Shown here in pieces: positions 1-45,414 of a stretch of DNA of 64,000 bases. The stretch lies in assembly GCF_051903065.1 (NCBI RefSeq), contig NZ_CP178438.1; one strand, given 5' to 3'. How positions within the stretch are numbered: position 1 is the first letter of the stretch; each line of letters begins with the position of its first letter. The translations under genes were made by a program, and so were the position numbers. The DNA is from Escherichia coli. GTDB lineage: Bacteria > Pseudomonadota > Gammaproteobacteria > Enterobacterales > Enterobacteriaceae. The notes beneath the pieces are model-generated. The model ran no database searches. It worked only from the letters and a program-made list of their open reading frames with translations, and was not told the DNA's origin.

Positions 1-995
1 TCGGCTTTCAGTTGTTGATACAGCGGTACGCAGGTGGCTGGCCCCATCAGGTAGTCGATTTCGGTCCACGGCATGCCGAGGTACAGCGATTCGAAAATCG
101 GCCTGGTGCGGTAAGAGACTTTATCGATGCGCACCACGGTCATGTTACGCCCGCCGGAGTAGTGTCCGGTAAACTCACCGAACGGCCCCTCGATTTCGCG
201 TTTACGGCTTTCGATGACCCCTTCGAGGATCACTTCTGAACCCCACGGCACATCAAAACCGGTCAGCGGGGCGGTGGCGATCGGGTACGAGCTTTCACGC
301 AGCGCGCCTGCCATTTCATACTCAGACTGATCGTATTTCAGCGGCGTGGCCCCCATCAGCGTGATGATCGGATCGTTACCGAGCGTGATGGCAATCGGCA
401 GATCTTCACCGCGCTCTTCTGCTTTATGCAGATGCAGGGCGATATCGTGCATCGGCACCGGTTGCAGGCCGAGCTTACGCTTGCCCTTCACTTCCATGCG
501 GTAGATGCCGACGTTCTGCTTGCCGAAGTTATCTGGGTCGAGCGGATCGCGGGAAACCACGCACGCTTTGTCGAGATAGAAACCGCCATCACCGTCGTTT
601 AAACGAAACAGCGGCAGGATATCGAACAGATTAATCTCGTCACCATCGACGGTGTTCTGCGCCCAGGCTGGATTGGCGCGGCGCTCCGGGGCGATCGGGA
701 AGTTATCCCAGCGGCGGATAAACTCATCAATCTGTTTTTTAACCGGGGTGTTTGGCGGCAGGCCCAAGGAAATCGCGTGGTTCTGCCAGGAACCGATGGT
801 ATTCATCGCCACGCGGGCATCGGTAAAACCGCGAATATTATCAAACCACAGCGCCGGTGCACCATCGCCGATACGCCCGGTGGCGTTGGCAGCGGCAGCC
901 AGATCCGGTTCCGCGTTCACCTCTTCGCTGATTTTCAGTAACTGGCCGTGGTCATCAAGCGCCTGTAAAAAGCTGCGTAAATCATCAAATGCCAT
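1..995 (-). CDS. UbiD-family decarboxylase (yclC/ecdC-like), N-terminal part only; gene runs off the window start
   Basis: Minus-strand frame opening at ATG (complement of 993-995) translating MAFDDLRSFLQAL..., a UbiD-like N-terminus. Start overlaps the stop of the upstream ubiX-like gene. Absent from ORF track because there is no stop inside the window. Confidence 0.6.
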   Translation of the reverse strand, partial: MAFDDLRSFLQALDDHGQLLKISEEVNAEPDLAAAANATGRIGDGAPALWFDNIRGFTDARVAMNTIGSWQNHAISLGLPPNTPVKKQIDEFIRRWDNFPIAPERRANPAWAQNTVDGDEINLFDILPLFRLNDGDGGFYLDKACVVSRDPLDPDNFGKQNVGIYRMEVKGKRKLGLQPVPMHDIALHLHKAEERGEDLPIAITLGNDPIITLMGATPLKYDQSEYEMAGALRESSYPIATAPLTGFDVPWGSEVILEGVIESRKREIEGPFGEFTGHYSGGRNMTVVRIDKVSYRTRPIFESLYLGMPWTEIDYLMGPATCVPLYQQLKA

Positions 996-1588
996 TATTC
1001 ATTCTCCTGAGAAAAATTCCGGGCCTGCGGCAATCCTTGCCAGCGCCTGGCGTGGGGATGTTCGAGGCCAAATTGATCCAGCACGCGGGCTACTACATGG
1101 TGGACAATGTCATCTACCGTTTCGGGATGGTTATAAAAGGCAGGCATCGGCGGCACCATCGCCACGCCCATGCGTGAAAGTGCGAGCATATTTTCGAGAT
1201 GGATGGTGCTAAGCGGCATTTCACGCGGCACCAGCACCAGTTTGCGGCCTTCTTTGAGCACGACGTCCGCCGCGCGCCCTACCAGGCCATCAGCGTAACC
1301 AGCGCGGATACCGGCGAGCGTTTTCATACTGCACGGAATAACGATCATGCCGTCGGTACGAAAGGAACCTGAGGAGATGGTCGCCGCCTGATCCGCCGGG
1401 TTATGGCTGAAGTCAGCGAGGGCAGCAACATCGCGGGCGCTGTAAGGCGTTTCCAGTTCAATGGTGGTTTTCGCCCACTTCGACATCACCAGATGAGTCT
1501 CGACATTCGGCATCTCCCGCAGCGCTTGCAGTAATGCCACACCAAGAGGCGCACCGGTAGCCCCTGTCATCCCGACGATCAGTTTCAT
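995..1588 (-). CDS. UbiX/Pad1-family flavin prenyltransferase (pad1/ecdB-like)
   Basis: 197-aa ORF MKLIVGMTGATGA... with the typical UbiX flavoprotein N-terminal motif; paired with the UbiD-like gene downstream. Confidence 0.85.
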   Translation of the reverse strand: MKLIVGMTGATGAPLGVALLQALREMPNVETHLVMSKWAKTTIELETPYSARDVAALADFSHNPADQAATISSGSFRTDGMIVIPCSMKTLAGIRAGYADGLVGRAADVVLKEGRKLVLVPREMPLSTIHLENMLALSRMGVAMVPPMPAFYNHPETVDDIVHHVVARVLDQFGLEHPHARRWQGLPQARNFSQENE

Positions 1589-1734
1589 TGCTTATTCTCT
1601 TAATTGTTCGTATACGAACGTTATTATTAAAATACGCCTCTGTTCTCATCGCGGCAAGCACTGAAAAGTAACAACATCCCCTTCGTCACTGAAAAACCGC
1701 TATGATAGCGGCAGAGAATTAGCCCGGAGTTTAC

Positions 1735-2142
1735 ATGGCGTTACGAAATAAAGCGTTCCATCAGTTACGACAGCTTTTTCAGCAGCACACATCTCGCTGG
1801 CAGCATGAGCTACCTGGCCTGACCAAACCGCAGTACGCGGTGATGCGCGCCATTGCTGATAAGCCTGGTATCGAACAGGTTGCGCTGATGGAAGCAGCAG
1901 TCAGCACCAAAGCAACGCTGGCAGAAATGCTGGCAAGAATGGAGAATCGTGGCTTAGTCAGACGTGATCATGATGCCGCTGACAAGCGGCGTCGCTTTGT
2001 CTGGCTGACTGCCGAAGGAGAAAAGATACTTGCTGCGGCGATACCGATTGGTGACAGCGTGGATGAGGAATTTTTGGGGCGTTTGAGTGCAGAAGAGCAG
2101 GAGCTGTTTGTGCAGCTGGTGCGCAAGATGATGAACACATAG
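1735..2142 (+). CDS. MarR/SlyA-family transcriptional regulator
   Basis: 135-aa ORF, winged-helix MarR-like sequence; divergent from the ubiX-like gene. Confidence 0.8.
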   Translation: MALRNKAFHQLRQLFQQHTSRWQHELPGLTKPQYAVMRAIADKPGIEQVALMEAAVSTKATLAEMLARMENRGLVRRDHDAADKRRRFVWLTAEGEKILAAAIPIGDSVDEEFLGRLSAEEQELFVQLVRKMMNT

Positions 2143-12283: not shown

Positions 12284-13321
12284 ATGTTTTCCGCATTGCG
12301 CCACCGTACCGCTGCCTTGGCGCTCGGCGTATGCTTTATTCTCCCCGTACACGCCTCGTCACCTAAACCTGGCGATTTTGCTAATACTCAGGCACGACAT
12401 ATTGCTACTTTCTTTCCGGGACGCATGACCGGAACTCCTGCAGAAATGTTATCTGCCGATTATATTCGCCAACAGTTTCAGCAAATGGGTTATCGCAGTG
12501 ATATTCGGACATTTAATAGTCGGTATATTTATACCGCCCGCGATAATCGTAAGAGCTGGCATAACGTGACGGGAAGTACGGTGATTGCCGCTCATGAAGG
12601 CAAAGCCCCGCAGCAGATCATCATTATGGCGCATCTGGATACTTACGCCCCGCTGAGCGATGCTGACGCCGATGCCAATCTCGGCGGGCTGACGTTACAA
12701 GGAATGGATGATAACGCCGCAGGTTTAGGTGTCATGCTGGAATTGGCAGAACGCCTGAAAAATACGCCTACCGAGTATGGTATTCGATTTGTGGCGACCA
12801 GCGGCGAAGAGGAAGGGAAATTAGGCGCTGAGAATTTACTCAAGCGGATGAGTGACACCGAAAAGAAAAATACGCTGCTGGTGATTAATCTCGATAACTT
12901 AATTGTTGGCGATAAATTGTATTTCAACAGCGGTGTAAAAACCCCTGAAGCAGTAAGGAAATTAACGCGCGACAGGGCGCTGGCAATTGCGCGTAGTCAT
13001 GGAATTGCCGCAACGACCAATCCGGGTTTGAATAAAAATTATCCGAAAGGCACTGGGTGTTGTAATGACGCAGAAATATTCGACAAAGCGGGCATTGCTG
13101 TACTTTCGGTGGAAGCGACTAACTGGAATCTTGGGAATAAGGATGGTTATCAGCAACGCGCAAAAACACCTGCCTTCCCGGCGGGAAATAGCTGGCATGA
13201 CGTAAGACTGGATAATCAACAACATATTGATAAGGCACTTCCTGGAAGAATAGAACGTCGCTGCCGTGATGTTATGCGGATAATGCTACCGTTGGTGAAG
13301 GAGCTGGCGAAGGCGTCTTGA
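12284..13321 (+). CDS. iap: Alkaline phosphatase isozyme conversion aminopeptidase
   Basis: 345-aa ORF with signal peptide and M28 peptidase-like sequence; sits at the classic iap position next to the CRISPR array. Confidence 0.92.
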   Translation: MFSALRHRTAALALGVCFILPVHASSPKPGDFANTQARHIATFFPGRMTGTPAEMLSADYIRQQFQQMGYRSDIRTFNSRYIYTARDNRKSWHNVTGSTVIAAHEGKAPQQIIIMAHLDTYAPLSDADADANLGGLTLQGMDDNAAGLGVMLELAERLKNTPTEYGIRFVATSGEEEGKLGAENLLKRMSDTEKKNTLLVINLDNLIVGDKLYFNSGVKTPEAVRKLTRDRALAIARSHGIAATTNPGLNKNYPKGTGCCNDAEIFDKAGIAVLSVEATNWNLGNKDGYQQRAKTPAFPAGNSWHDVRLDNQQHIDKALPGRIERRCRDVMRIMLPLVKELAKAS

Positions 13322-13402
13322 TGGGTTGGAAAATGGGAGCTGGGTGTTCTACCGCAGGGGCGGGGAATTCTCAGTGATATCCATCATCGCATCCAGTGCG
13401 CC

Positions 13403-13858
13403 CGGTTTATCCCCGCTGGCGCGGGGAACACGTGTGGCACTCTGCGTCTGGTATTAAATCATTCGGTTTATCCCCGCTGGCGCGGGGAACACCCGCCACG
13501 CCGTGCGCATCAACAGATATACGCAGGTTTATCCCCGCTGGCGCGGGGAACACAAACCGAAACACACGATCAATCCGAATATGAGCGGTTTATCCCCGCT
13601 GGCGCGGGGAACACCGAAAAGGCACCGTGCCGGTGACGTTCAATTCCGGTTTATCCCCGCTGGCGCGGGGAACACCGTTTTCACTCACTGGCAATCTCCG
13701 AGCAGAGCGGTTTATCCCCGCTGGCGCGGGGAACACGTGCGAATACCGTGTAAAAAATTAGTGTTATTCGGTTTATCCCCGCTGGCGCGGGGAACACTCA
13801 CGGTAGCGCCACTGCGCGTCGGTGACGGGCGGTTTATCCCCGCTGGCGCGGGGAACAC
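13403..13858 (-). CRISPR. CRISPR array 1 (type I-E): 8 repeats, 7 spacers of 32 nt
   Basis: 29-bp repeat CGGTTTATCCCCGCTGGCGCGGGGAACAC at 13403, 13464, 13525, 13586, 13647, 13708, 13769, 13830 (61-bp period). Third repeat starts with A. AT-rich leader on the high-coordinate side, so transcription is on the minus strand. Confidence 0.97.
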
Positions 13859-13954
13859 ACTAAGCATACATATCTGTTTTTAAACAAATTTATTCCACAT
13901 CAACAATCTACCAACTAAATTCAAACATTTCCTTATTTTTAAAGAACACATAAC
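13859..13954 (-). promoter_or_regulatory. CRISPR array 1 leader (AT-rich; promoter and integration signals)
   Basis: AT-rich tract between the last repeat and cas2; contains CAATCTACCAAC, also found at similar distance in the leader of array 2. Confidence 0.7.
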
Positions 13955-15164
<1,210 letters not shown>

Positions 15165-15168
<4 letters not shown>

Positions 15169-15815
15169 ACCTCTGCTCCGGGTTTGATCAGCATCAGACC
15201 ACAGCCGAACGCGCGGCTTTTGCCATACCCCTGACTGAGACGTTGCAGAAATAACCCGGGATCGGTGACCGTAAGCATCCCCGTATAATCCACGCTACTG
15301 AACTGGATCAGTTGCCGGGAGTTTTCCCGCCGCAGTTGCTGTTGTCGGTAGGCATCAACCGAGGTATCCAGCAGTGTAAAACCGCTTCTCTCCCCCTGCG
15401 CTGCCAGCCAGTCCAGCGCCGCCTGTTGTTGATGCAACCAGACATCACGCCCTTCCGCCTGTCCCCTCACCTGCCGTTTCGCCTCCATCAGCAGATCGTG
15501 GCGCTTGCCCGCTTTACAAATTGTGGGATTCGCCCGCAGGTTGAAACAAAGGGATTGTCCGGTACGCAGCTCCGGAGCAAATGACCGGCATTCGATAGTG
15601 AAAGTTTCACTTTCCGCCGGGCGTTCCTGCGAGAGGACAAAAAAGCGAAACGCACCCTGAAGTTCCTCCCGACGATAAAGAAATTGCCTTTCTTTGCCGC
15701 CAGGGAAGAGATCCCACAGCCACTGATGCATCACATATTCACCGCGATCCACCAGATGCAGCAACTGCGCAGGCAAAAGCTGAGCGGTATGTAAGGTTAT
15801 TCTTGAGAGGTACAT
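15165..15815 (-). CDS. cas6e: Cas6e (CasE/Cse3) crRNA endoribonuclease
   Basis: Position between cas5 and cas1; C-terminal G-rich loop SRAFGCGLM typical of Cas6e. Start placed at internal ATG (MYLSRITLH...); track ORF extends 46 codons upstream into cas5. Confidence 0.8.
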
Positions 15816-16543
15816 GGTTCCTCCTTGCTGAGCCACGGCCCCTGATTGACGGTGCGTTCCCCAAACAGCCACTGCTGGCGATTTAAAGGAACATCCCGGC
15901 GGCGTAATATTTTGCTCACGACCAGGCCGTCGTGCTCCCCTTCCCACCAGCATTCATCCTGAAGTTTCGGGAGTGAGACTTTCAGGTCGTGGAAATGATC
16001 CTGATACTGTTGGTATGCGTTACGTAAAACATCAGACGCGTTGCCTTCGAGCAGTAACGGCGCAAGTGGTAATGCCAGCGGATGACTTTTTCGCCCCAGA
16101 TAAAGAGGAAAAACTGGATGGCGTAAACCGCCCTGCAACTGTTCGAGGCTGTAAGGCGCATCGGCTGTTGTTGCCACCGCCACCATCCACCAGGCGTCGG
16201 TGTAGTAGTCGCGCCGGGAGATAATCGCGCTCAGAAGATCAGAGTCGCTCAACTCTTCGCGACGGCTGAAATAACGCGCTTTGCGCACCTCTTTTGGCAT
16301 CTGGATCGTGTGATAATCCCGTGCCCAGCGCGGGTTACGGCTGGCGCAAACCACCAGTGAATAGTGGCGATTAAACGCGTTTAAGCGTTCGGTATCATCA
16401 CGCCGAATCCCTACCCCGGCAGCCAGCAGACCCAGCAATGCTGAGCGCGAAGGCAGTTCATGGGTATGACGCACTTCGCCGGGGGCATCGACGCCCCAGG
16501 ATGCCATTGGCCCATGAAGCTGAAAAATCAGATATTGGCTCAT
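15797..16543 (-). CDS. cas5: Cas5e (CasD) Cascade subunit
   Basis: 248-aa ORF MSQYLIFQLHGPMASWG..., Cas5 N-terminal pattern; operon position. Confidence 0.85.
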   Translation of the reverse strand: MSQYLIFQLHGPMASWGVDAPGEVRHTHELPSRSALLGLLAAGVGIRRDDTERLNAFNRHYSLVVCASRNPRWARDYHTIQMPKEVRKARYFSRREELSDSDLLSAIISRRDYYTDAWWMVAVATTADAPYSLEQLQGGLRHPVFPLYLGRKSHPLALPLAPLLLEGNASDVLRNAYQQYQDHFHDLKVSLPKLQDECWWEGEHDGLVVSKILRRRDVPLNRQQWLFGERTVNQGPWLSKEEPCTSQE

Positions 16544-16553
16544 AAGCCGCCCC

Positions 16554-17609
16554 TTACGCGCAGATAAAGTCCAGTACGTCCTTCATGCTTCCCTGTTTGT
16601 TCATCACGTCAAAACTTGCGCATTCAGTCTTCTGTTCGTAGACCGTATTCATGTTTTCGCGAAGCGTTGTAATACGCTGCACCGCCACATCTAACTGACG
16701 GGTACCATTAATGGGTTCATAGAAAGCCGCCGCCAGAGAACGCGGTTGATCAGTGCCTTTTTCCGCCAGCGCCCAGGAGGCGTAGGCACGGCTGGCAAAG
16801 CTATTTTGTTTACCGGTTGGGGAAACTTTAAGCGCGGCTTCCGTAAAAGCGCGTATGGTCTGATTAGCTAACGCTTCGTCACCGCCGAGGTTTTCTACCA
16901 GCAGATCTTTATCAATGCAGATATAGGTGTAGAAAAGTGCTGAACCGAATCCGGTTTCTCCGAGATGCCCGGCACCGGCATCTTCAGAGGCCTGGCGCAA
17001 ATCATCAACGGCGGTGAAAAAATCATCTTCGACAATCGTTTCACTGACACCAAACGCATGCGCGACCTGGCAGGCGGCTTCAACATTAAACTCAGGTTTA
17101 TTCGCCAGCATACGACCAAACATAGCGATATCTACCGCTATACGGTCTTTACGTAACAACGCGAGATCTTCCTCTTTTGGCGCGCGCTTTTCTTCTGCCA
17201 GTTGATGGGCCAGCGCTTTTACGGCGTCAAATTCTGCCGGGCTGATATGAACTAATTGTTCAGTTTCGGCGTTAGTGAGCGGATCTTTTGGTTTTTTGTC
17301 GTTTTTAGCTTTCCCAAGATAATCTGCAATTTTTGCCGCCCATTCGATGGCTTTTTTCTCTTCGATTCCTTTCTCAATCAGGATAGTTGCCGCCTCACGC
17401 GCAATTCGCCCACTGCGAATACCAATATGGCCCGCCAGTGCCTGTTCAAAAAGTGCAGAAGTGCGCCACGCACGTTTCAGACTTTGTGAGGAAACGCGCA
17501 GACGCGTTGCACCACCCAGTACCACAGTTTTTGGCGCACCAGTATCATCACGGTTAAGGTTGGCAGCAGGGTAAGCGGTTAACAAATGAAGCTGAATAAA
17601 TGTTGTCAT
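16554..17609 (-). CDS. cas7: Cas7e (CasC) Cascade backbone subunit
   Basis: 351-aa ORF MTTFIQLHLLTAYPAANLNRDDTGAPK..., Cas7e N-terminal signature. Confidence 0.92.
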   Translation of the reverse strand: MTTFIQLHLLTAYPAANLNRDDTGAPKTVVLGGATRLRVSSQSLKRAWRTSALFEQALAGHIGIRSGRIAREAATILIEKGIEEKKAIEWAAKIADYLGKAKNDKKPKDPLTNAETEQLVHISPAEFDAVKALAHQLAEEKRAPKEEDLALLRKDRIAVDIAMFGRMLANKPEFNVEAACQVAHAFGVSETIVEDDFFTAVDDLRQASEDAGAGHLGETGFGSALFYTYICIDKDLLVENLGGDEALANQTIRAFTEAALKVSPTGKQNSFASRAYASWALAEKGTDQPRSLAAAFYEPINGTRQLDVAVQRITTLRENMNTVYEQKTECASFDVMNKQGSMKDVLDFICA

Positions 17610-17620
17610 GAGATAGTCCT

Positions 17621-18160
17621 TTATTGATTTTGTTCGTTATCGGCGTCGCCAGCCTGGTAATATTCCAGCGCCCAGCGGATACGGATAAATTCGGTTGGCC
17701 GCTGCTGGCGGCGGTGATGATTGAGCAGGTCGTCGCTCTCCTGACACCAGCGGAAAATATCGTCTGCCAAAGAGATAAGATTGACGGAACCGTTTAATAA
17801 TTTGACTGCGCGTCGTAACTGGCGCAGTAATTCATCCGGCGTTTTTACTGCCGACAGGCAAGTAAAACGCCCCTCTGACATTACCGCCGCCAGCTGTGCG
17901 GCAAAAGGCTGCCGTTCATCAATGGCTTTAACATTGGCGGCAACGGCGGCGACCAGTGCCAGTGCGGTAAAACGCCACTCTTGTGCTTCAATTTTCCACA
18001 AAGTGTGGGTCTGCATCAGCAGAGAACGAAACCCTTCTGACAAGCAAACATCATTAACCGTTGTGCTACGCCGCAGACTGGCACGATTGCCGCGTTTAGC
18101 CTGCAACTCTTCGTGCCATTTACGCAGCGTGGCTTTGTGCCCGTCTTTTACAATACTCAT
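17621..18160 (-). CDS. cse2: Cse2 (CasB/Cas11e) Cascade small subunit
   Basis: 179-aa ORF between cse1 and cas7. Confidence 0.85.
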   Translation of the reverse strand: MSIVKDGHKATLRKWHEELQAKRGNRASLRRSTTVNDVCLSEGFRSLLMQTHTLWKIEAQEWRFTALALVAAVAANVKAIDERQPFAAQLAAVMSEGRFTCLSAVKTPDELLRQLRRAVKLLNGSVNLISLADDIFRWCQESDDLLNHHRRQQRPTEFIRIRWALEYYQAGDADNEQNQ

Positions 18161-19725
18161 TCAGCAGCCTCCTGCTTTTTCTCCCTGGCGGCTTTAGCAC
18201 TTTGCTTCTCCGCCGATGTTGTAAAATATTTTTTGCGCGCGGTCATGACGCGTTTTAAATCAACGGGCTCATAAGGATTGGTGAATACACGCTCGTCAAA
18301 ATCCTGACGCGAGAATAACCAAATCTCCTTATTCCATTTGCTGAGTAATTCATCCGCATCCTGACCTTCTTCAATTTGGCGCACTAACCTCAGGAAGCGA
18401 TGCTGAGTTTTGTTCCAGAAGTCGATATCCACAAAACTGAAATCACCCCGTGCACCTTTTGGATCGGAGAACCATGCTTCTTTCAATGCACTCCGTAACA
18501 GACTTAGAATGCGTGAAGCCGTTTGCGCAGCCAGCCGCAGTTTCGGTATCTGGCCTTCTTTTTTATTGAGCAGCAGCGGGAAACGGTGTTCGTACCAACA
18601 GCGGGCTTTCATGTTGTCGAAATCATAGCCAAATCCCCATAGGCCTACTTTTGCCTGCTTGAGACTGCTGGCATTAAAGAGTTTCACCACCAGAGCGGGA
18701 AGTTCCGTATTGTTTTCTGACTTACCCGTTTCGATAAGGCCTAACCAGTCGCGCCAAATTAAACCGCCTGGTTGTGGTTTAACTGAGTAAAACTCGCCAC
18801 CCTCTTTAAGTGGTACACGGTAAGGCGTTAATGGATGCTGCCACATGGCATAATTCGCACCGTAATTTTTGGTCGTCATCAGGCTCAGAAGCGCGTCGTC
18901 CTGCTCACCGCAAATATCGCAGTTGCCGACTGTCGTGGTATTAAAATCAATACGAATACGCCGCGGCATTCCCCAGTACGCCTGGAGTTTATTGACCTGA
19001 TCATCGGTTACCACCGCACCGGCCAGTTCGCTGGTACGCGTCGGGCCAAGCCAGGGGAAAACCAGATCGTCAAATTTTTTGGGTAGCGGTAAGTCGGCTT
19101 CATCCTGCGGCATCACGTTGAGCCACAGTTTGCGCCACAAGGGGGCTTGTTGATTGCCCTGATACTCCTGCAATTCAATCAGAGTCGTCATCGGCCCACC
19201 GCCGCGTAAACCGGTTCGGTAGCCTTTGCCGCCTGACGGTGCATTTAACTGTAGGGAGAACAGAGCTAACGCGGAACAATGAGGGCATACGTGTTCAGTC
19301 ACGCCACGCTTAATAAAGTGGTCTTTATTAAACTTCGTTGTTTGAGCGCCGGGAATCTCAGGCAGTAATGAAGCAACCTGAACTTTATCTCCCGTGAGCG
19401 CCTCGAAATCCTGCATAAATGAAGGGGAATCTGGCCCAAACTGGAAAGCATGTTCTAAAGACAGCAATGCTTCCCGTAGCTTTTCGGCTTCCAGTCCGTC
19501 TTGCCAGATATCATCCCAACGACCATGATTTTTGGGCGCGAAACTGGTTTGTAGTAGCCCCAGTAAAAACTGCCATGCTGCTCCCTGGAGATCTGCTCGT
19601 GGCGCAGCGATATCGACAACATTTTCATCAGCCAGATCGACTGGCGCCAGTTTGCCTGTCGTTCCGTCTTTAAAACGAACGGGCAACCACGGGGTTGTCA
19701 GAAGTGAAAACGAGTTCATACGCAT
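18157..19725 (-). CDS. cse1: Cse1 (CasA/Cas8e) Cascade large subunit
   Basis: 522-aa ORF at head of the Cascade operon; alternative start 2 codons in (MNSFSLL). Confidence 0.88.
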   Translation of the reverse strand: MRMNSFSLLTTPWLPVRFKDGTTGKLAPVDLADENVVDIAAPRADLQGAAWQFLLGLLQTSFAPKNHGRWDDIWQDGLEAEKLREALLSLEHAFQFGPDSPSFMQDFEALTGDKVQVASLLPEIPGAQTTKFNKDHFIKRGVTEHVCPHCSALALFSLQLNAPSGGKGYRTGLRGGGPMTTLIELQEYQGNQQAPLWRKLWLNVMPQDEADLPLPKKFDDLVFPWLGPTRTSELAGAVVTDDQVNKLQAYWGMPRRIRIDFNTTTVGNCDICGEQDDALLSLMTTKNYGANYAMWQHPLTPYRVPLKEGGEFYSVKPQPGGLIWRDWLGLIETGKSENNTELPALVVKLFNASSLKQAKVGLWGFGYDFDNMKARCWYEHRFPLLLNKKEGQIPKLRLAAQTASRILSLLRSALKEAWFSDPKGARGDFSFVDIDFWNKTQHRFLRLVRQIEEGQDADELLSKWNKEIWLFSRQDFDERVFTNPYEPVDLKRVMTARKKYFTTSAEKQSAKAAREKKQEAAE

Positions 19726-20115
19726 CCTCTCGTAGAAAAGACCATCCCTGGTCGGTTGTCCATCACCATATTTTCAGATTTAGTTGGAGACTTAATCTGA
19801 GTCGGATAAAAGAAAAGACGTTGAATGTGATACGAAAATCGAACTTAGTTTGTCGTTTTGAAAGCAGACTTAGCACAAGTTGAAGCAAAAAAATCGACAA
19901 CATCGTAGTCCTCTTCACCGCAGCTTTTCACCGGTCACGAAAATACGCCTTGTAACGGTGTGACTCAACTCCGGATCCGGACATTATTTAAAATCTTTGT
20001 TTCTCATTAACTCATAGCAATTACCCATCTATCATAATCACAATAGCATTGATAAAATAAATCCATTCCCTGATTCTAGGGATTAACCAAGTTAGTGAGA
20101 TACAAAAATTGGTTC

Positions 20116-20144
20116 CTGTTCCCCGCGTCAGCGGGGATAAGCCC
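20116..20144 (+). repeat. Solitary degenerate CRISPR-repeat-like element in the cas3-cse1 intergenic region
   Basis: cTGTTCCCCGCGtCAGCGGGGATAAgCCc is 24/29 identical to the crRNA-sense repeat GAGTTCCCCGCGCCAGCGGGGATAAACCG. Stem CCCCGC/GCGGGG is intact. crRNA sense is on the plus strand, opposite to the cas genes and to both arrays. Confidence 0.75.
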
Positions 20145-20166
20145 TGGCGTCATCCGACGCCAGGGC
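20141..20166 (-). terminator. Strong hairpin 4 nt downstream of cas3 stop (possible cas3 terminator)
   Basis: GCCCTGGCGTC-atcc-GACGCCAGGGC, 11-bp stem; on the cas3 sense strand it is followed by the repeat-derived hairpin and a TTTTTG run. Confidence 0.5.
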
Positions 20167-20169
20167 ATC

Positions 20170-22869
20170 TCAATCAACCTTGCCAATCAATCCTTCCGTA
20201 GCCGAATACCCGCAGCTTTCGTCATCGGTGACTAAAATCACGTTTGCCATCTCCGGATCTTGCCGTTGTTCAATGCACCACTGCCTGAACGCTTCCCCTT
20301 CCAGTAAAGAAAATTCATCCCGATGTTTTTTCCACCAGCTTCGACGCACTCTGGCAACGCTCATTTCCCATGCGTGAGCACCGCTGGCATAAGGCTTCAC
20401 CACACCGTCAATACAGGTAGCCAGCCACAGGGAAACAGACTCTTCAGCCAGACGTGTCGACAGCTTTTCCGGGAGGTAATCGTTGATATTGGCGGCATAG
20501 CCGGGCCTGAAGTTCAGCATAAACTTTTTAGCCATTGCGCGATCGCAGTAATATTTGCCCACTTGCTCCTGCTCGCTGCGGGCAAATCCTTCCGGCATTA
20601 CCACGTCCTCACCGTAGACGGATTCAATAAGAAGCCGGGCTGCGTGTGGCATCTGAATAGCGCCTTGCTCACGCAATACTCGCTGCGTCAGCCAGATTCG
20701 CCCATGATCGGGGTAGACATATGCGCTGTTACGCATCGCACTACCAAACCATTCGTCACCCGGAGAGTCGTCCCAGACGGGGGCCAGAATCAGCAATTCA
20801 GGAGGGGAACGCTCGTCTTTTCCATCACGTTTTAACTGACCATTAATATCACGAATATGCCGTTGTAATCGCCCCGCTCGCTGGATCAGCAAATCAATGG
20901 GGGCCAGGTCGGAGATCATTTCGTCCAGGTCAATATCCACACTTTGCTCAATTACTTGTGTACAAACAATGACTTGAGATGATCTTTTTAAACTACAATT
21001 TTTACCAAAGCGTGCCAGCGTTTCCGTTTCAATTCGCTGGCGATCGCTAAAAGCAAAGCGGCTATGAAAAAGTGAAAGGCTGGAAGCAGGAATGACGCCG
21101 CGGGCAAGTAACTGACGATAAACCTTAATAGCGTCATCGACAGAATTCCGGATCCAGGCGATGCATTTCCCCTGACTTACCGCTGATTCGATACGCGCAA
21201 TACATTCTTGTTCGCTATGAAGCCAACCCACGCTCACGCTACGCTCAACGTCTTTGCGCGTCGCTACCCGGTGCGAATGCACATCGGATTTCGTGACATG
21301 CGTCAGCCAGGGGTAATCATCCTTTTCTAGGAACGGAGCTTCTTGCTGGCCCTCTGTGCCACGCGCAAAGGCGGCGACAAGTTTGTCGCGCTGCTGTTGA
21401 GATAACGTAGCAGAAAGCAAAATGACGCTGTTTCCGCCACGCACCTGTCGCTCAATCAACCCTTCAAGAATGTACGACATGTAAGCGTCACAGGCGTGGA
21501 TCTCATCAGCCAGCAGGATTTTGTTACTCAACCCCAGAAGCCGCAGATTATTATGTTTAAACGGCATCACTGCCATCATCGCCTGATCCAGCGTGCCGAC
21601 GCCAATTTCAGCCAGTAAAGCCTTCTTGTTACTGTCGGCAAACCAGGCTGCACATCCTTGACTGAACGCTTGTTCATCCGGTTCTTCTGACCCGACTAAA
21701 TCACCGGACCAGAGTGATTCATTAAAGCGTTCCATTAATGTACGGGCGCTGTGTGCCAGCACCAGGCTGGGGCGGGATTCTGGCGAAAAGAAAGCAAGCC
21801 AGGTTTTGACCAGCCGATCGTACATGGCATTGGCCGTTGCCATTGTTGGCAGGCCAAAAAACAAACCCTGAGCTTTATTCTCAGCCATCAACCTGTGCGC
21901 CAGGATAAGCGCCGCTTCTGTTTTACCTGCGCCAGTCACATCTTCCAGAATAAATAACTGTGGCCCTGGCTGGCTGATATCCAGATCCAGTACCTTTTGC
22001 TGTAATGGTGTCGGGTGCTCAATAAAAGGAAACAGCGTATTAATTCCGGTGAAAGGTGCGGTTTCTGCTTTTGGAGGAAAGACGGTTAAGGCGTTTTGAG
22101 CCTGAACTAAAGTTTTCTGCCAGTAATCTTTAATATTCATTGTCTGTGCGACGCGTGGAAAAAATCGCGTTGACGAACCCGTCCAGTCTGCGAGTACGAC
22201 TGTTGCAGAGATATACCAGGAAAGTTGTTTTAAAAGTTCAACGCCCTCGTCATCATCCCAGAATGTGGGAATCTCTATGAGCGGAAACAGTGACTTGATT
22301 TCAAGGAGAAAATCTCGTGCGGCAGCTTTGTCTTCAGGCAGGAAATTATCCAGTTCATCAATACGGTCAGGGGGCCGACCATGATGCCCGGTAGTCATGG
22401 GCATCCACATCGCTATTACACGTTTAAGTTTGCGAGTAGAGAGTGAAGAGGCAGGAAGCAATTCTTCGCATTCACTTAAATAATGATGCCACAACCAGTA
22501 GCCCAGCGTTGAATGAGAGATCTTTTCGTAATTCTTTCTTGCGCCTTCCGGAACCTTGAGTTGTGGGTGCAGGTAAAGTTGCTGAAATGAGCGGGCAAAT
22601 TTTCCAATATCGTGCCAGCACAACAACCAGGCGAAAAATTGAGCCGCCTGTTCCTTGTCAGAAATCCCTAATTGACGAAAATAATCAGCCAGCCCGAAGC
22701 AATTTCTTTTAACCATTAAATAGCCCATCGCGGCCACATCCAGCGAATGCCAGCAAAGAAGGTGATAGTCGTCACCCCCTTCTTTCTCGTCGCGTCGGGT
22801 TTTTCCCCAGAAATCAAAGAAAGTCACAATATTTTTATCCTTCAGTAAACTTAAAGGATATTTACGCAT
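20170..22869 (-). CDS. cas3: Cas3 HD-nuclease/helicase
   Basis: 899-aa ORF with N-terminal HD-like region and SF2 helicase motifs (DVTGAGKTEA, DEIH). Confidence 0.93.
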   Translation of the reverse strand: MRKYPLSLLKDKNIVTFFDFWGKTRRDEKEGGDDYHLLCWHSLDVAAMGYLMVKRNCFGLADYFRQLGISDKEQAAQFFAWLLCWHDIGKFARSFQQLYLHPQLKVPEGARKNYEKISHSTLGYWLWHHYLSECEELLPASSLSTRKLKRVIAMWMPMTTGHHGRPPDRIDELDNFLPEDKAAARDFLLEIKSLFPLIEIPTFWDDDEGVELLKQLSWYISATVVLADWTGSSTRFFPRVAQTMNIKDYWQKTLVQAQNALTVFPPKAETAPFTGINTLFPFIEHPTPLQQKVLDLDISQPGPQLFILEDVTGAGKTEAALILAHRLMAENKAQGLFFGLPTMATANAMYDRLVKTWLAFFSPESRPSLVLAHSARTLMERFNESLWSGDLVGSEEPDEQAFSQGCAAWFADSNKKALLAEIGVGTLDQAMMAVMPFKHNNLRLLGLSNKILLADEIHACDAYMSYILEGLIERQVRGGNSVILLSATLSQQQRDKLVAAFARGTEGQQEAPFLEKDDYPWLTHVTKSDVHSHRVATRKDVERSVSVGWLHSEQECIARIESAVSQGKCIAWIRNSVDDAIKVYRQLLARGVIPASSLSLFHSRFAFSDRQRIETETLARFGKNCSLKRSSQVIVCTQVIEQSVDIDLDEMISDLAPIDLLIQRAGRLQRHIRDINGQLKRDGKDERSPPELLILAPVWDDSPGDEWFGSAMRNSAYVYPDHGRIWLTQRVLREQGAIQMPHAARLLIESVYGEDVVMPEGFARSEQEQVGKYYCDRAMAKKFMLNFRPGYAANINDYLPEKLSTRLAEESVSLWLATCIDGVVKPYASGAHAWEMSVARVRRSWWKKHRDEFSLLEGEAFRQWCIEQRQDPEMANVILVTDDESCGYSATEGLIGKVD

Positions 22870-23061: not shown

Positions 23062-23214
23062 CTACTTCTTCGATTCGTAAGCGAGAACAGCCTTAAACTC
23101 CATACCACGTTCTCTGATACTCAACTCACACAACGAGTCACCTACCATCAGCGTGAATCCCAGTACTGTACAACACAGTACGATGATTGCCACAAGGGCA
23201 TATTTTGTCAGCAT
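23062..23214 (-). CDS. Hok/Gef-family type I toxin (HokE-like small membrane peptide)
   Basis: 50-codon ORF not in the track (below size cutoff): [50 protein letters not shown]. Hok signature (TM helix, SLCE, AYE) and a GGGAGG Shine-Dalgarno 7 nt upstream. Location matches the known hokX/sokX locus between cysH and cas3. Confidence 0.75.
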
Positions 23215-39273: not shown

Positions 39274-39319
39274 GTGAGGAAGACCGGGCGGGAAACTGCC
39301 CGGCCTGAACATACCTGAA

Positions 39320-39458
39320 TGGTTATCCCCGCTGGCGCGGGGAACATAAGTTCGACAACTTAAAAAATGATAACAAGTCCGGTTTATCCCCGCTGATGCA
39401 GGGAACATAATAAAAACTTTAACTAGTTCGGTTTATCCCTGTTTTTACAAGGAATATT
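39320..39458 (-). CRISPR. Decayed CRISPR remnant: three degenerate type I-E repeats with irregular spacing
   Basis: tGGTT-ATCCCCGCTGGCGCGGGGAACAT (39320-39347), CGGTTTATCCCCGCTGATGCAGGGAACAT (39380-39408), CGGTTTATCCCTGTTTTTACAAGGAATAT (39430-39458); intervening segments 32 and 21 nt. Confidence 0.8.
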
Positions 39459-39519: not shown

Positions 39520-40576
39520 GGCTTTGTTGAATAAATCGAACTTTTGCTGAGTTGAAGGATCAGATCACGTATCTTCCCGACAACGCAGACCGTTCCGTGG
39601 CAAAGCAAAAGTTCAAAATCACCAACTGGCCCACCTACAATAAAGCCCTCATCAACCGTGGCTCCATAACTTTCTGGCTGGATGATGAAGCTATTCAGGC
39701 CTGGTATGAGTCAGCAACACCTTCTTCACGAGGCAGACCTCAGCGCTATTCTGACCTTGCCATCACGACTGTGCTGGTCATTAAACGCGTATTCAGGCTG
39801 ACCCTGCGCGCTGCGCAGGGCTTTATTGATTCCATTTTTTCTCTGATGAACGTTCCGCTACGCTGCCCGGATTACAGCTGTGTCAGCAGGCGGGCAAAGT
39901 CGGTTAATGTCAGTTTCAAAACGCCCACCCGGGGTGAAATCGCACACCTGGTAATTGATTCCACCGGGCTGAAGGTCTTCGGTGAAGGCGAGTGGAAAGT
40001 CAAAAAGCATGGCCAGGAACGCCGCCGTATCTGGCGTAAGCTGCATCTCGCCGTTGACAGTAAAACACATGAAATCATCTGCGCTGACCTGTCGCTGAAC
40101 AACGTTACGGACTCAGAGGCCTTCCCCGGGTTAATCCGGCAAACCCACCGGAAAATCAGGTCAGCCGCCGCCGATGGCGCTTACGATACCCGGCTATGTC
40201 ACGATGAACTGCGGCGTAAGAAAATCAGCGCGCTTATCCCTCCCCGAAAAGGTGCGGGTTACTGGCCCGGTGAATATGCAGACCGTAACCGTGCAGTGGC
40301 TAATCAGCGAATGACCGGGAGTAATGCGCGGTGGAAATGGACAACAGATTACAACCGTCGCTCGATAGCGGAAACGGCGATGTACCGGGTAAAACAGCTG
40401 TTCGGGGGTTCACTGACACTGCGTGACTACGATGGTCAGGTTGCAGAGGCTATGGCCCTGGTACGAGCGCTGAACAAAATGACGAAAGCAGGTATGCCTG
40501 AAAGCGTGCGTATTGCCTGAAAACACAACCCGCTACGGGGGAGACTTACCCGAAATCTGATTTATTCAACAAAGCC
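39520..40576 (+). mobile_element. IS903-family (IS5 superfamily) insertion sequence, 1057 bp, intact, with 9-bp target site duplication
   Basis: 18-bp terminal inverted repeats GGCTTTGTTGAATAAATC at 39520-39537 and (reverse complement) 40559-40576. Direct repeat ATTTTCACT at 39511-39519 and 40577-40585. One transposase ORF spans the element. Confidence 0.93.
39597..40520 (+). CDS. IS903-family DDE transposase
   Basis: Open frame from 39552 (TTG) in the track; likely start GTG 39597, giving ~307 aa. Start assignment is uncertain. Confidence 0.85.
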   Translation: MAKQKFKITNWPTYNKALINRGSITFWLDDEAIQAWYESATPSSRGRPQRYSDLAITTVLVIKRVFRLTLRAAQGFIDSIFSLMNVPLRCPDYSCVSRRAKSVNVSFKTPTRGEIAHLVIDSTGLKVFGEGEWKVKKHGQERRRIWRKLHLAVDSKTHEIICADLSLNNVTDSEAFPGLIRQTHRKIRSAAADGAYDTRLCHDELRRKKISALIPPRKGAGYWPGEYADRNRAVANQRMTGSNARWKWTTDYNRRSIAETAMYRVKQLFGGSLTLRDYDGQVAEAMALVRALNKMTKAGMPESVRIA

Positions 40577-40976: not shown

Positions 40977-41554
40977 TGGTTTATCCCCGCTGGCGCGGGG
41001 AACTCGTACTGACGGATAAAAATAATACCTTTTGCGGCGGTTTATCCCCGCTGGCGCGGGGAACTCGTCAACGTTTTTCATGTGGGCATGAGTTGGGGCG
41101 GTTTATCCCCGCTGGCGCGGGGAACTCTATTCGGCCTCGTGCTGGTCGTGACAAAATACCGGTTTATCCCCGCTAGCGCGGGGAACTCTGGCGATATTGC
41201 CTACCGCAACAAAGAAAATACGGTTTATCCCCGCTAGCGCGGGGAACTCATCCACGAATCCAGTGCAAATGAGTTTGTTGGCGGTTTATCCCCGCTAGCG
41301 CGGGGAACTCATTGTGACTACCACCGATAACCCCGCAACCACCGGTTTATCCCCGCTAGCGCGGGGAACTCCTGCATTCGCCTGCGGTTATCAGATCGCT
41401 AAACGGTTTATCCCCGCTAGCGCGGGGAACTCGCTGCCATTACTTCCCGCCAGCGTTGCTCTGGCGGTTTATCCCCGCTAGCGCGGGGAACTCGCAGAGA
41501 ATCGTTCGATTGCCCCTACATCTTCCGGTTTATCCCCGCTGGCGCGGGGAACTC
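40977..41554 (-). CRISPR. CRISPR array 2 (type I-E): 10 repeats, 9 spacers of 32 nt
   Basis: 29-bp repeat CGGTTTATCCCCGCTGGCGCGGGGAACTC at 40977, 41038, 41099, 41160, 41221, 41282, 41343, 41404, 41465, 41526. Repeats 4-9 have CTAGCGC instead of CTGGCGC; repeat 1 starts with T. Leader on the high-coordinate side. Confidence 0.97.
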
Positions 41555-41700
41555 TCTAAACATAACCTATTATTAATTAATGATTTTTTAAGCCAGTCAC
41601 AATCTACCAACTTTACAGTATCACACAAACAACACATCCATTATGTTAAAGAGCGCTTAATCCATTGATTAAAAAGGTAAATATTTAAAATAACTCTATA
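41555..41700 (-). promoter_or_regulatory. CRISPR array 2 leader (AT-rich)
   Basis: AT-rich; contains CAATCTACCAAC about 45-58 nt from the first repeat as in leader 1, and a second similar copy AAAATCTACCAAAC further out. Confidence 0.65.
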
Positions 41701-41892: not shown

Positions 41893-42564
41893 TCAGGCAA
41901 TATTTAGATATTTATGTGTTTGCATCGACAAACGCCAATTACGCGCAATGCAGATTTCAATGCACAATCGTGTGGCATCATCCTTTTGGCTAATCGGCTG
42001 CAGTGCAATGACTCGCGGTTTATCATCGGTCAGCGTTGCCAATAGTTCATCCAGTGCTTCAATATCGCGTACGCGCCCCACTGGATGCTTGATTTCGTTG
42101 GCTCGCTCCAGTGCCTGTGACAACACTTCATAGCCGCCGCGCATGTTCAGCTTTGGCGATACGGTAACCCAGGTATTCGGTGTGCAGCGTACCTCATGAG
42201 TACCACTGGTTTCGATCTGGCAGCTAAAACCGTTCTTTTCGAGCAGATCAGTCAGTGGTAGCAAATCATGAATGCAAGGCTCACCACCCGTAATCACCAC
42301 ATGCCGCGCGGTGTATCCCTGGCGACTAATGACAGCCAACAAGTCTTCACTGCTCGCCGCCCCCCACTTATCACTCTCTTTGGTCTTCGCCAGAATGCTG
42401 AAAAGGGAGACTTCCCGATCCTCAAGCTTTTCCCAGGTGTGTTTGGTGTCGCACCAGGCACAGCCAACCGGGCATCCCTGTAAACGAATAAAAATGGCGG
42501 GGACGCCGGTAAAGTAACCCTCACCTTGCAGGGTCTGGAACATCTCGTTAATCGGGTACTGCAT
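41893..42564 (-). CDS. queE: 7-carboxy-7-deazaguanine synthase (radical SAM)
   Basis: 223-aa ORF MQYPINEMFQTLQGEGYFTGVPAIFIRLQGCPVGCAWCDTK... Confidence 0.95.
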   Translation of the reverse strand: MQYPINEMFQTLQGEGYFTGVPAIFIRLQGCPVGCAWCDTKHTWEKLEDREVSLFSILAKTKESDKWGAASSEDLLAVISRQGYTARHVVITGGEPCIHDLLPLTDLLEKNGFSCQIETSGTHEVRCTPNTWVTVSPKLNMRGGYEVLSQALERANEIKHPVGRVRDIEALDELLATLTDDKPRVIALQPISQKDDATRLCIEICIARNWRLSMQTHKYLNIA

Positions 42565-42736
42565 AGCATTCTCTGTGAAGTGGATAATTGTTAATTATTG
42601 CAGATCCTGCCACAACAATCATGTCTTATTAACATTCTGTTACAGGCAGGCTTATGGCAAAAAGTGGATTAGATCATAAAGAATAAAATGAAGCAGTGTA
42701 TTATGTTTTAAGGAATTAATTAAAAGGGATTTAAAC

Positions 42737-43339: not shown

Positions 43340-43352
43340 GCGGGGAACTTCT

Positions 43353-44246: not shown

Positions 44247-44260
44247 CAAAAGGAATTGAT

Positions 44261-45409: not shown

Positions 45410-45414
45410 TCGTA

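What the first reader, a model, noticed from the sequence alone, without database searches (positions are those of the whole stretch)
13403..13858. The two CRISPR arrays of one I-E system use repeat variants differing at one position (..GGGGAACAC vs ..GGGGAACTC)
All 8 repeats of array 1 end AACAC; all 10 of array 2 end AACTC. In crRNA sense this is GUG versus GAG at the 5' side of the 3' hairpin handle. Both arrays share orientation (leaders on the high-coordinate side) and a leader motif. Uniform within-array difference means the arrays are maintained independently; it may affect Cas6e processing or Cas1-Cas2 integration fidelity. The 7 + 9 spacers are an untested record of past invaders and possible self-targets.
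Basis: seen in the sequence. Interest (0 to 1): 0.4.

Follow-up and report, generated by a model that had tools for sequence, protein, structure and literature searches.

The report
Known A/T repeat variants, E. coli CRISPR
The two CRISPR arrays of this E. coli chromosome do differ at one repeat base, but this is the long-described "CRISPR-A / CRISPR-T" polymorphism, which persists because each array copies its own first repeat, and published tests found no functional effect.

Summary
All 8 repeats at 13403-13858 end AACAC and all 10 at 40977-41554 end AACTC. The window is E. coli: array 1 is CRISPR2.1 (iap-cas2) and array 2 is CRISPR2.3 (ygcE-queE), served by one complete O157-type (E1/cas-EO) type I-E operon.

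The difference is the published CRISPR-A/CRISPR-T dimorphism (consensus GWGTTCCCCGCGCCAGCGGGGATAAACCG). Yosef 2012 used exactly this base as a label. They showed that each new repeat is copied from the array's leader-proximal repeat, which explains the uniformity within each array.

In 5,426 complete genomes:
- The A-type leader of CRISPR2.1 carries an A repeat in 1,088 exact junctions and a T repeat in none.
- CRISPR2.3 is T-type in at least 1,198 genomes and A-type in at least 2,457.
- K-12 shows the mirror image (T at 2.1, A at 2.3).
- E1 strains occur with either state at 2.3.

So the base marks array lineage. K-12 experiments (Swarts 2012, Yosef 2012) show both variants acquire spacers and confer interference equally.

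Three spacers match prophages with CAT, CAT and CTT flanks, the E1 signature, in both arrays. I found no self-targets.

Verdict: already known, low interest.

The parts
12284..13321 (+). iap, the conserved left flank of the CRISPR-I locus
   Evidence: Annotated in the colinear genome NZ_AP045789.1, which is 99.995% identical over window 1-39519 with the same coordinates.
13342..13370 (-). Degenerate terminal repeat of CRISPR2.1 plus a fixed pseudo-spacer (13371-13402)
   Evidence: 19 of 29 bases match the repeat in exact 61-nt register, p about 5e-6. The same sequence is present in K-12. The pseudo-spacer matches other E. coli chromosomes.
13403..13858 (-). CRISPR2.1 array: 8 repeats, all A-type (..AACAC on +, GUG.. 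in crRNA), and 7 spacers of 32 nt. Transcribed leftward from the leader.
   Evidence: Annotated as CRISPR in identical genomes.
13859..13954 (-). Leader 2.1 of type A (L1), with the conserved motif ACAATCTACCAAC
   Evidence: Alignment with K-12 leaders. The junction with an A repeat is exact in 1,088 genomes; the junction with a T repeat is exact in none.
13955..15168 (-). cas2e (13955-14248) and cas1e (14245-15168), the spacer integrase
   Evidence: Intact ORFs. NCBIfam TIGR01873 and TIGR03638 score above cutoff. Cas1 is 84% identical to K-12 Cas1.
15165..19719 (-). Cascade genes: cas6e (15165-15815), cas5e (15797-16543), cas7e (16554-17609), casB (17621-18160), casA (18157-19719)
   Evidence: Intact ORFs. 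All pass the NCBIfam I-E equivalog cutoffs. Cas6e is 28% identical to K-12 CasE, which marks the O157-type E1 variant.
20170..22869 (-). cas3 helicase-nuclease
   Evidence: 899-aa ORF. Cas3 HD and core domains score above cutoff.
23062..23214 (-). hok/gef toxin gene between cas3 and cysH, a marker of non-K-12 (non-E2) arrangements
   Evidence: Annotation of the colinear genome. Almendros 2014 report hok/sok in all strains except those carrying E2.
39319..39441 (-). CRISPR2.2 remnant: two degenerate repeats ending AACAT and a truncated third
   Evidence: The same structure is present in K-12.
39520..40576 (+). IS903-like insertion sequence (1,057 bp) with a 9-bp target duplication ATTTTCACT. 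It lies between CRISPR2.2 and CRISPR2.3 and is not part of the CRISPR system.
   Evidence: Absent from the otherwise identical NZ_AP045789.1. 322-aa transposase ORF at 39552-40520. Multicopy on chromosomes and plasmids. The IS903 name is from my own knowledge of its size and target duplication.
40977..41554 (-). CRISPR2.3 array: 10 repeats, all T-type (..AACTC on +, GAG.. in crRNA), and 9 spacers. Repeats 4-9 (41160-41493) also carry the loop variant TAGC.
41555..41700 (-). Leader 2.3, nearly identical to the K-12 leader 2.3 and sharing the motif ACAATCTACCAAC
41893..42564 (-). queE (ygcF), the conserved right flank of the CRISPR-II locus

Best explanation
The window carries the standard E. 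coli type I-E locus of the O157-type (E1 / cas-EO) variant. CRISPR2.1 sits next to iap and cas2. The orphan array CRISPR2.3 sits 27 kb away next to queE. The one-base difference (AACAC vs AACTC on the + strand, GUG vs GAG at position 2 of the repeat in crRNA) is the described CRISPR-A / CRISPR-T polymorphism.

Each array is uniform because Cas1-Cas2 integrates a new spacer at the leader-repeat junction and the new repeat is templated by that array's own leader-proximal repeat. Whatever base sits in repeat #1 is therefore inherited by every later repeat of that array and never crosses to the other array.

At CRISPR2.1 the A base travels with the A-type leader and the E1 cas module. At CRISPR2.3 the base is a marker of that array's own lineage: T in this strain, A in K-12 and many others.

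The base is unpaired, lies outside the Cas6e hairpin, and is functionally neutral as far as it has been tested.

Shown here: the anatomy, the population distribution and the flanking motifs (PAMs) of protospacers. Taken from the literature: templating from repeat #1 and equal function in K-12. Inferred: neutrality with the E1 proteins of this strain.
For: Anatomy and identity:
- iap, array, leader and cas2-cas1-cas6e-cas5e-cas7e-casB-casA-cas3, then hok and cysH, and further on ygcE, CRISPR2.2, CRISPR2.3 and queE.

Published naming and consensus:
- Diez-Villasenor 2013, PMC3737337: consensus ..AACWC. CRISPR-A co-occurs with leader-A and cas-EO; CRISPR-T co-occurs with leader-T and cas-EK.
- Swarts 2012 give the consensus GWGTTCC...

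Mechanism of uniformity:
- Yosef 2012, PMC3384332: GAG/GTG labels in both orders, 10 of 10 clones copied repeat #1.

- Leader-A junction with an A repeat is exact in 1,088 genomes; with a T repeat in 0.
- CRISPR2.3 junction is exact T in 510 + 688 genomes and exact A in 2,457.
- Arrays parsed in 14 strains. Eight E1 strains including the window have A at 2.1 and T at 2.3.
- E1 strain GE3 has A at 2.1 and T,A x25 at 2.3.
- K-12 and B27 (E2) have T at 2.1 and T,A.. at 2.3.
- E2 strain Combat11I9 has T x10 at 2.3 and shares its oldest spacer with the window.

Functional neutrality:
- Both variants acquire spacers and interfere equally in K-12, and Cas1-Cas2 process both repeats.
- The centroid hairpin and its energy are identical for both variants.

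Both arrays were loaded by the same E1-type adaptation machinery:
- Protospacer flanks are CAT for array-1 spacer 3, and CAT and CTT for array-2 spacers 2 and 3.
- CAT is used by cas-EO but was not detected for K-12 Cas1-Cas2.
Against: - Six consecutive internal repeats of array 2 carry the loop variant TAGC, yet the leader-proximal repeat is TGGC. Pure copying of repeat #1 cannot give this order without a reversion or a recombination event.
- Strain 21EVA has the mosaic T,A,A,T,T,T at CRISPR2.3. Switches of the A/T base therefore do occur, by a route not identified here.
- Diez-Villasenor 2013 saw 7 anomalous insertions out of 18 when K-12 Cas1-Cas2 were combined with a CRISPR-A/leader-A cassette. 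They attribute this to the leader, but the repeat base was not separated from the leader in that experiment.
- No direct test exists for E1 Cas6e or E1 Cas1-Cas2 on T versus A repeats.
- The census classifies only exact 61-nt junctions. About 790 of 4,446 genomes remain unclassified.
Confidence: 0.9

Rival explanations
1. Functional specialisation. The base at repeat position 2 changes how the E1-type Cas6e/Cascade or Cas1-Cas2 treat the two arrays (processing yield, loading, integration accuracy or array choice). The split of A at CRISPR2.1 and T at CRISPR2.3 would then be maintained by selection.
For: - Eight E1 strains including the window show the same A/T split, and K-12 shows the mirror image.
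- Anomalous insertions occurred with a mismatched CRISPR-A/leader-A cassette and K-12 Cas1-Cas2.
- E1 Cas6e is only 28% identical to K-12 CasE, so K-12 results need not transfer.
Against: - The sample was partly chosen for similarity to the window.
- E1 strain GE3 has 25 A-type repeats at CRISPR2.3, and E2 strain Combat11I9 has T-type in both arrays. No combination is excluded.
- K-12 experiments show equal acquisition and interference from A and T arrays.
- The base is unpaired and outside the hairpin.
- Both arrays hold spacers with E1-type flanking motifs.
Confidence: 0.06
2. Historical imprint of the cas variant. New repeats take A when the E1 integrase is active and T when the K-12-type E2 integrase is active. 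The T-type CRISPR2.3 array would then be a relic of a period when this lineage carried an E2 system.
For: - At CRISPR2.1 the association is absolute in the classified genomes: A with leader-A, exact T junctions 0.
- The E2 strain 21EVA has its newest three CRISPR2.3 repeats as T after two A.
Against: - Yosef 2012 showed that the new repeat takes the base of repeat #1 whichever label is placed there, with K-12 Cas1-Cas2.
- K-12 and B27 (E2) have A-type CRISPR2.3 arrays.
- Array-2 spacer 2 in the window has a CAT flank, which K-12-type Cas1-Cas2 did not use.
- GE3 (E1) has A at CRISPR2.3, whereas the window (E1) has T.
Confidence: 0.03
3. Assembly or sequencing artefact, or a chance pattern.
For: None found.
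Against: - Array 1 is identical in three independent complete genomes.
- All nine array-2 spacers and the T-type repeats recur in NZ_CP083585.1 and NZ_AP045789.1.
- The same states are found in thousands of genomes.
- An 8/8 versus 10/10 split has probability about 2e-5 under independence.
Confidence: 0.01

Closest known systems
E. coli CRISPR-A / CRISPR-T repeat variants of the type I-E (CRISPR2) arrays (Diez-Villasenor et al. 2010/2013; Yosef et al. 2012; Swarts et al. 2012)
   Same: The base is the same (penultimate base on the + strand, position 2 in crRNA sense) and the two alleles are the same. The loci are the same (iap-cas2 and ygcE-queE). CRISPR-A is linked to leader-A and the O157-type cas genes at CRISPR2.1.
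   Different: Nothing essential. The main text of the papers I read states the association only for CRISPR2.1. The distribution at CRISPR2.3 found here (T in at least 1,198 genomes, A in at least 2,457, either state with either cas variant) is an added description, not a new phenomenon.
E. coli K-12 MG1655 CRISPR-Cas I-E (E2 / cas-EK variant)
   Same: The gene order, flanking genes, CRISPR2.2 remnant, leader 2.3 and 29-nt repeat / 32-nt spacer architecture are the same. The oldest CRISPR2.3 repeat, TGGTTTAT..AACTC, is the same.
   Different: The repeat bases are a mirror image: K-12 has T at CRISPR2.1 and A at CRISPR2.3. The leader 2.1 differs. Cas6e is 28% and Cas1 84% identical. K-12 lacks an annotated hok gene and uses only the CTT flank for acquisition.
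E. coli O157:H7-type I-E system (E1 / cas-EO; Almendros et al. 2014 arrangement with L1 leader and hok/sok)
   Same: It shares leader-A, CRISPR-A repeats at CRISPR2.1, hok between cas3 and cysH, cas gene sizes and the CWT protospacer flanks.
   Different: The spacer content differs. This strain also has an IS903-like element upstream of CRISPR2.3 and a loop-variant block inside CRISPR2.3.

Membership tests
[quoted passage not shown] | Full cas3-cse1-cse2-cas7-cas5-cas6e-cas1-cas2 gene set | tested here: met
   Eight intact ORFs at 13955-22869 on the - strand. Each reaches the NCBIfam I-E model cutoff; Cas3 does so through its HD and core domain models.
[quoted passage not shown] | 29-nt partially palindromic repeats with 32-nt spacers (61-nt period) and an AT-rich leader on the cas2 side | tested here: met
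   A 7-bp stem with a 4-nt loop is predicted. Leaders are aligned.
[quoted passage not shown] | Protospacers flanked by the I-E motif (5'-protospacer-C-WT-3', i.e. an AWG PAM), with the C incorporated as the first base of the next repeat | tested here: met
   Three protospacers in prophages have flanks C-AT, C-AT and C-TT. Only 3 of 16 spacers had detectable targets.
[quoted passage not shown] | crRNA production and interference activity | not testable with these tools
   No expression data are available. E. coli I-E systems are reported to be silenced under laboratory growth (papers read).
CRISPR-A / leader-A / cas-EO (E1) variant at CRISPR2.1 | Repeats end ..AACAC and adjoin the A-type leader | tested here: met
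   All 8 repeats are A-type. The exact 61-nt junction is shared with 1,088 genomes, and no genome has a T repeat on this leader.
CRISPR-A / leader-A / cas-EO (E1) variant at CRISPR2.1 | cas genes of the non-K-12 variant with hok/sok next to cas3 | tested here: met
   Cas6e is 28% and Cas1 84% identical to K-12. cas1 is 97-100% identical (nucleotide) to the E1 strains compared. hok is annotated at 23062-23214 in the colinear genome.
CRISPR-T repeat variant (at CRISPR2.3) | Repeats end ..AACTC and adjoin leader 2.3 between ygcE and queE | tested here: met
   All 10 repeats are T-type. The exact junction is shared with 510 genomes, and 688 more carry it with a 1-nt leader variant.
First-repeat templating of new repeats (mechanism behind within-array uniformity) | A new repeat always carries the sequence of the leader-proximal repeat | tested here: inconclusive
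   Shown experimentally by Yosef 2012. The A/T base is uniform in both window arrays, which is consistent. The TAGC loop block, with a TGGC leader-proximal repeat, does not fit without an extra event.

The most novel reading that the evidence does not exclude
The base at repeat position 2 might not be fully neutral for the O157-type (E1) proteins. The mosaics seen in some strains (T,A,A,T,T,T in 21EVA; a block of loop-variant repeats followed by a wild-type leader-proximal repeat in this window) might reflect a repeat-correcting or array-to-array conversion process during adaptation, rather than ordinary mutation or recombination between strains. That would mean repeats are not always simple copies of repeat #1.
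Probability: 0.05. Interest if true: 0.45.

Novelty: already known. Interest (0 to 1): 0.1.

Why it matters
It matters little. The polymorphism has been described since 2010, was named in 2013, and has already served as an experimental label to establish how repeats are duplicated. Its practical value is as a typing marker. A at CRISPR2.1 identifies the O157-type cas/leader module. The base at CRISPR2.3 marks the lineage of that array independently of the cas genes.

The spacer content adds a small, ordinary data point to the picture that E. coli I-E spacers target temperate phages. A functional difference for the E1 proteins would affect how orphan arrays are used, but current evidence points to neutrality.

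Tried and rejected
- I first took the T-type CRISPR2.3 array to be a rare state, because the exact window junction occurred in 510 genomes against 2,457 for the A version. I rejected this after finding that many T-type arrays carry a leader SNP (TGTAAAC), which adds 688 genomes.
- I then considered a strict pairing of the E1 system with T at CRISPR2.3, since 8 of 8 sampled E1 strains showed it. I rejected this too: GE3 is a complete E1 strain with 25 A-type repeats there, and Combat11I9 is E2 with T-type repeats.
- I considered that T repeats record acquisition by a K-12-type integrase. A CAT flank in the T array and the published templating experiment rule this out.
- The plasmid database gave no real spacer targets. 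The only hits were the fixed pseudo-spacer, in three chromosome-sized records and one 293-kb record filed as plasmids.
- Rfam gave no match over array 1 at gathering thresholds.
- PMC3506596 turned out to concern the I-F system and was not useful.
- Most arrays were therefore read with the DNA search or get_sequence rather than parsed by script.

Full report
**What is there.** The pattern CGGTTTATCCCCGCTGGCGCGGGGAACNC occurs 18 times on the + strand, against 0 expected by chance. Eight copies at 13403-13858 all end AACAC. Ten copies at 40977-41554 all end AACTC. The period is 61 nt and all 16 spacers are 32 nt.

**Where it is.** The window is an E. coli chromosome segment. It is 99.995% identical and colinear over its first 39.5 kb with strain 23CRST027.
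- Array 1 lies between iap (12284-13321) and cas2e. It is followed by a complete, intact type I-E operon: cas2e, cas1e, cas6e, cas5e, cas7e, casB, casA and cas3 at 13955-22869 on the - strand. All eight proteins pass NCBIfam I-E cutoffs.
- After the operon come a hok toxin gene and cysH.
- Array 2 lies 27 kb away, between ygcE and queE.
- In the nomenclature of Diez-Villasenor and Mojica these are CRISPR2.1 and CRISPR2.3.
- The decayed CRISPR2.2 mini-array is also present at 39319-39441.
- Both leaders are on the high-coordinate side and share the invariant motif ACAAyCyACCAAC with both K-12 leaders.

**Which cas variant.** Window Cas1 is 84% identical and Cas6e only 28% identical to the K-12 proteins. 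The 2.1 leader differs from the K-12 leader, and hok is present. These are the marks of the major, O157-type variant, called cas-EO or E1. K-12 carries the minor E2 variant.

**The one-base difference is a described polymorphism.**
- Diez-Villasenor et al. [quoted passage not shown] - Swarts et al. 2012 give the consensus GWGTTCCCCGCGCCAGCGGGGATAAACCG.
- Yosef et al. 2012 describe it as a 1-nt difference at position 2.

**Why each array is uniform.** Yosef et al. used exactly this base as a genetic label in two-repeat arrays, in both orders. In 10 of 10 expanded clones the new repeat carried the label of repeat #1. [quoted passage not shown] Within-array uniformity and between-array independence follow directly.

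**Population picture obtained here.** I used 61-nt queries (last repeat plus 32 nt of leader) against 5,426 complete E. coli genomes. For a query of this length only a perfect match falls in the band of 99% identity or more.

| Junction queried | Genomes with an exact match |
|---|---|
| CRISPR2.1 leader-A with an A repeat | 1,088 |
| CRISPR2.1 leader-A with a T repeat | 0 (best full-length hits 98.4%) |
| CRISPR2.3 leader with a T repeat, leader TCTAAAC | 510 |
| CRISPR2.3 leader with a T repeat, leader TGTAAAC | 688 |
| CRISPR2.3 leader with an A repeat | 2,457 |

About 790 genomes with a CRISPR2.3 leader remain unclassified.

I also read whole arrays in 14 strains. Bases are listed from the leader-distal end to the leader.

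| Strain(s) | cas variant | CRISPR2.1 | CRISPR2.3 |
|---|---|---|---|
| Window and seven other strains | E1 | all A | all T |
| GE3 | E1 | A x10 | T, A x25 |
| K-12 MG1655 | E2 | A, T x12 | T, A x6 |
| B27 | E2 | T x11 | T, A x8 |
| 21EVA | E2 | T x2 | T,A,A,T,T,T |
| Combat11I9 | E2 | A, T x14 | T x10 |
| S43 | none | A x5 | A x8 |

Combat11I9 shares its oldest CRISPR2.3 spacer with the window. The base at CRISPR2.1 therefore travels with the leader-cas module. The base at CRISPR2.3 marks that array's own lineage and occurs in either state with either cas variant. This agrees with the conclusion of Almendros et al. 2014 that the two loci evolve separately. The window's combination is one of the common configurations, and K-12 happens to show the mirror image.

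**Function.**
- In crRNA sense the base is position 2 of the repeat, 3 nt 5' of the 7-bp stem that Cas6e recognises. It is unpaired, and the centroid fold and its energy are the same for both variants.
- In K-12, whose arrays are T and A, Swarts et al. found new spacers in 67% of plasmid-cured clone types (PIMs) at CRISPR2.1 and 74% at CRISPR2.3. Retransformation efficiency did not differ between the loci.
- Yosef et al. state that Cas1 and Cas2 efficiently process both repeats.
- Two caveats remain. The strongly diverged E1 Cas6e of this strain has not been tested. Diez-Villasenor et al. saw 7 anomalous insertions of 18 when a CRISPR-A/leader-A cassette was paired with K-12 Cas1-Cas2, an effect they assign to the leader.

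**Spacers.** I searched 16 spacers plus the fixed pseudo-spacer against phage and plasmid records, and the 16 spacers against the E. coli genomes.
- Array-2 spacer 2 (41067-41098) matches 33 of 33 bases in an ImmA/IrrE gene of Escherichia phage vB_EcoM-705R4 and in many prophages.
- Array-2 spacer 3 (41128-41159) matches the neighbouring gene of the same prophage, 846 bp away on the same strand.
- Array-1 spacer 3 (13554-13585) matches a prophage major capsid gene, 33 of 33 in strain SE11 and 31 of 33 in three phage records.
- The flanks are C-AT, C-TT and C-AT respectively. CAT is used by the O157-type adaptation proteins and was not detected for K-12. Both the A array and the T array were therefore loaded by E1-type machinery.
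- No real plasmid targets were found.
- I found no self-targets in the window at up to 8 mismatches.
- The strain carrying all nine array-2 spacers, ECNB21-M121, shows only two matching places. I infer these are its two arrays.
- Close relatives differ from the window only by internal repeat-spacer units and share the same leader-proximal spacer. There is thus no sign of recent acquisition.
- Prophage targeting fits Dion et al. 2024.

**Details that the copying model explains or does not explain.** The odd first bases of two repeats (A at 13525, T at 40977) fit the published finding that this base is carried in with the spacer from the flanking motif. Not explained: repeats 4-9 of array 2 carry the loop variant TAGC while the leader-proximal repeat is TGGC. 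This needs a reversion or a recombination event at repeat #1. Combat11I9 has the same loop variant in its six newest repeats, with different spacers.

**Verdict.** The phenomenon is already known, mechanistically explained and apparently neutral. Interest is low.

Noticed in passing
window 41160-41493 (six repeats) versus 41526-41554: Six consecutive internal repeats of CRISPR2.3 carry a loop variant (GCTAGCG; C-to-U at loop position 3 in the crRNA), but the leader-proximal repeat is wild type. Copying from repeat #1 cannot produce this order without a reversion or recombination. The E2 strain Combat11I9 (L013 32028-32360) has the same variant in its six newest repeats, with different spacers.
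   Followed up: partly
window 39520-40576: A 1,057-bp IS903-like element lies between CRISPR2.2 and CRISPR2.3. It has a 9-bp target duplication (ATTTTCACT), terminal inverted repeats (GGCTTTGTTGAATAAATC..) and a 322-aa transposase ORF at 39552-40520. It is absent from the otherwise near-identical genomes 23CRST027 and ECNB21-M121.
   Followed up: partly
window 39319-39441: CRISPR2.2 remnant: two degenerate repeats ending AACAT and a truncated third. It has the same structure as in K-12.
   Followed up: yes
window 13342-13402: A degenerate terminal repeat (19 of 29 bases in register) plus a fixed pseudo-spacer sits between iap and the first good repeat. It is conserved in K-12.
   Followed up: yes
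window 41067-41159 (array-2 spacers 2 and 3); L015 61-939: Two adjacent spacers target the same prophage, 846 bp apart on the same strand (an ImmA/IrrE gene and the next gene), with CAT and CTT flanks. This is the pattern expected from primed adaptation. The prophage is common in ST131 and other lineages.
   Followed up: partly
window 13525 and 40977: The first base of the 29-nt repeat is A and T here instead of C. This fits the published finding that this base comes in with the spacer from the flanking motif, which implies non-canonical flanks for the adjoining spacers.
   Followed up: partly
L004 1564-1897 (strain 21EVA, K-12-type cas with a casB pseudogene): The CRISPR2.3 array is a mosaic at the A/T base: T,A,A,T,T,T from the distal end to the leader. 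Switches in both directions therefore occur in nature. The cause (mutation in repeat #1 or recombination) was not resolved.
   Followed up: no
window 15165-15815 versus K-12 casE: Cas6e of the two E. coli I-E variants is only 28% identical while Cas1 is 84% identical, yet both variants serve almost identical repeats.
   Followed up: partly
window 1-2142 and 42700-46300: The flanking gene content differs from K-12, according to the annotation of the colinear genome. Hydroxyarylic acid decarboxylase subunits and a MarR regulator lie beside rpoS. LemA/TPM-domain genes lie downstream of queE in place of yqcG-ygcG.
   Followed up: no
L014 30713-31106 (strain FDAARGOS_1371): Seven CRISPR2.1 repeats carry GATTTAT instead of GGTTTAT, and an ISVsa5 element separates the array from cas2. 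This is another example of a repeat SNP propagated along an array.
   Followed up: no
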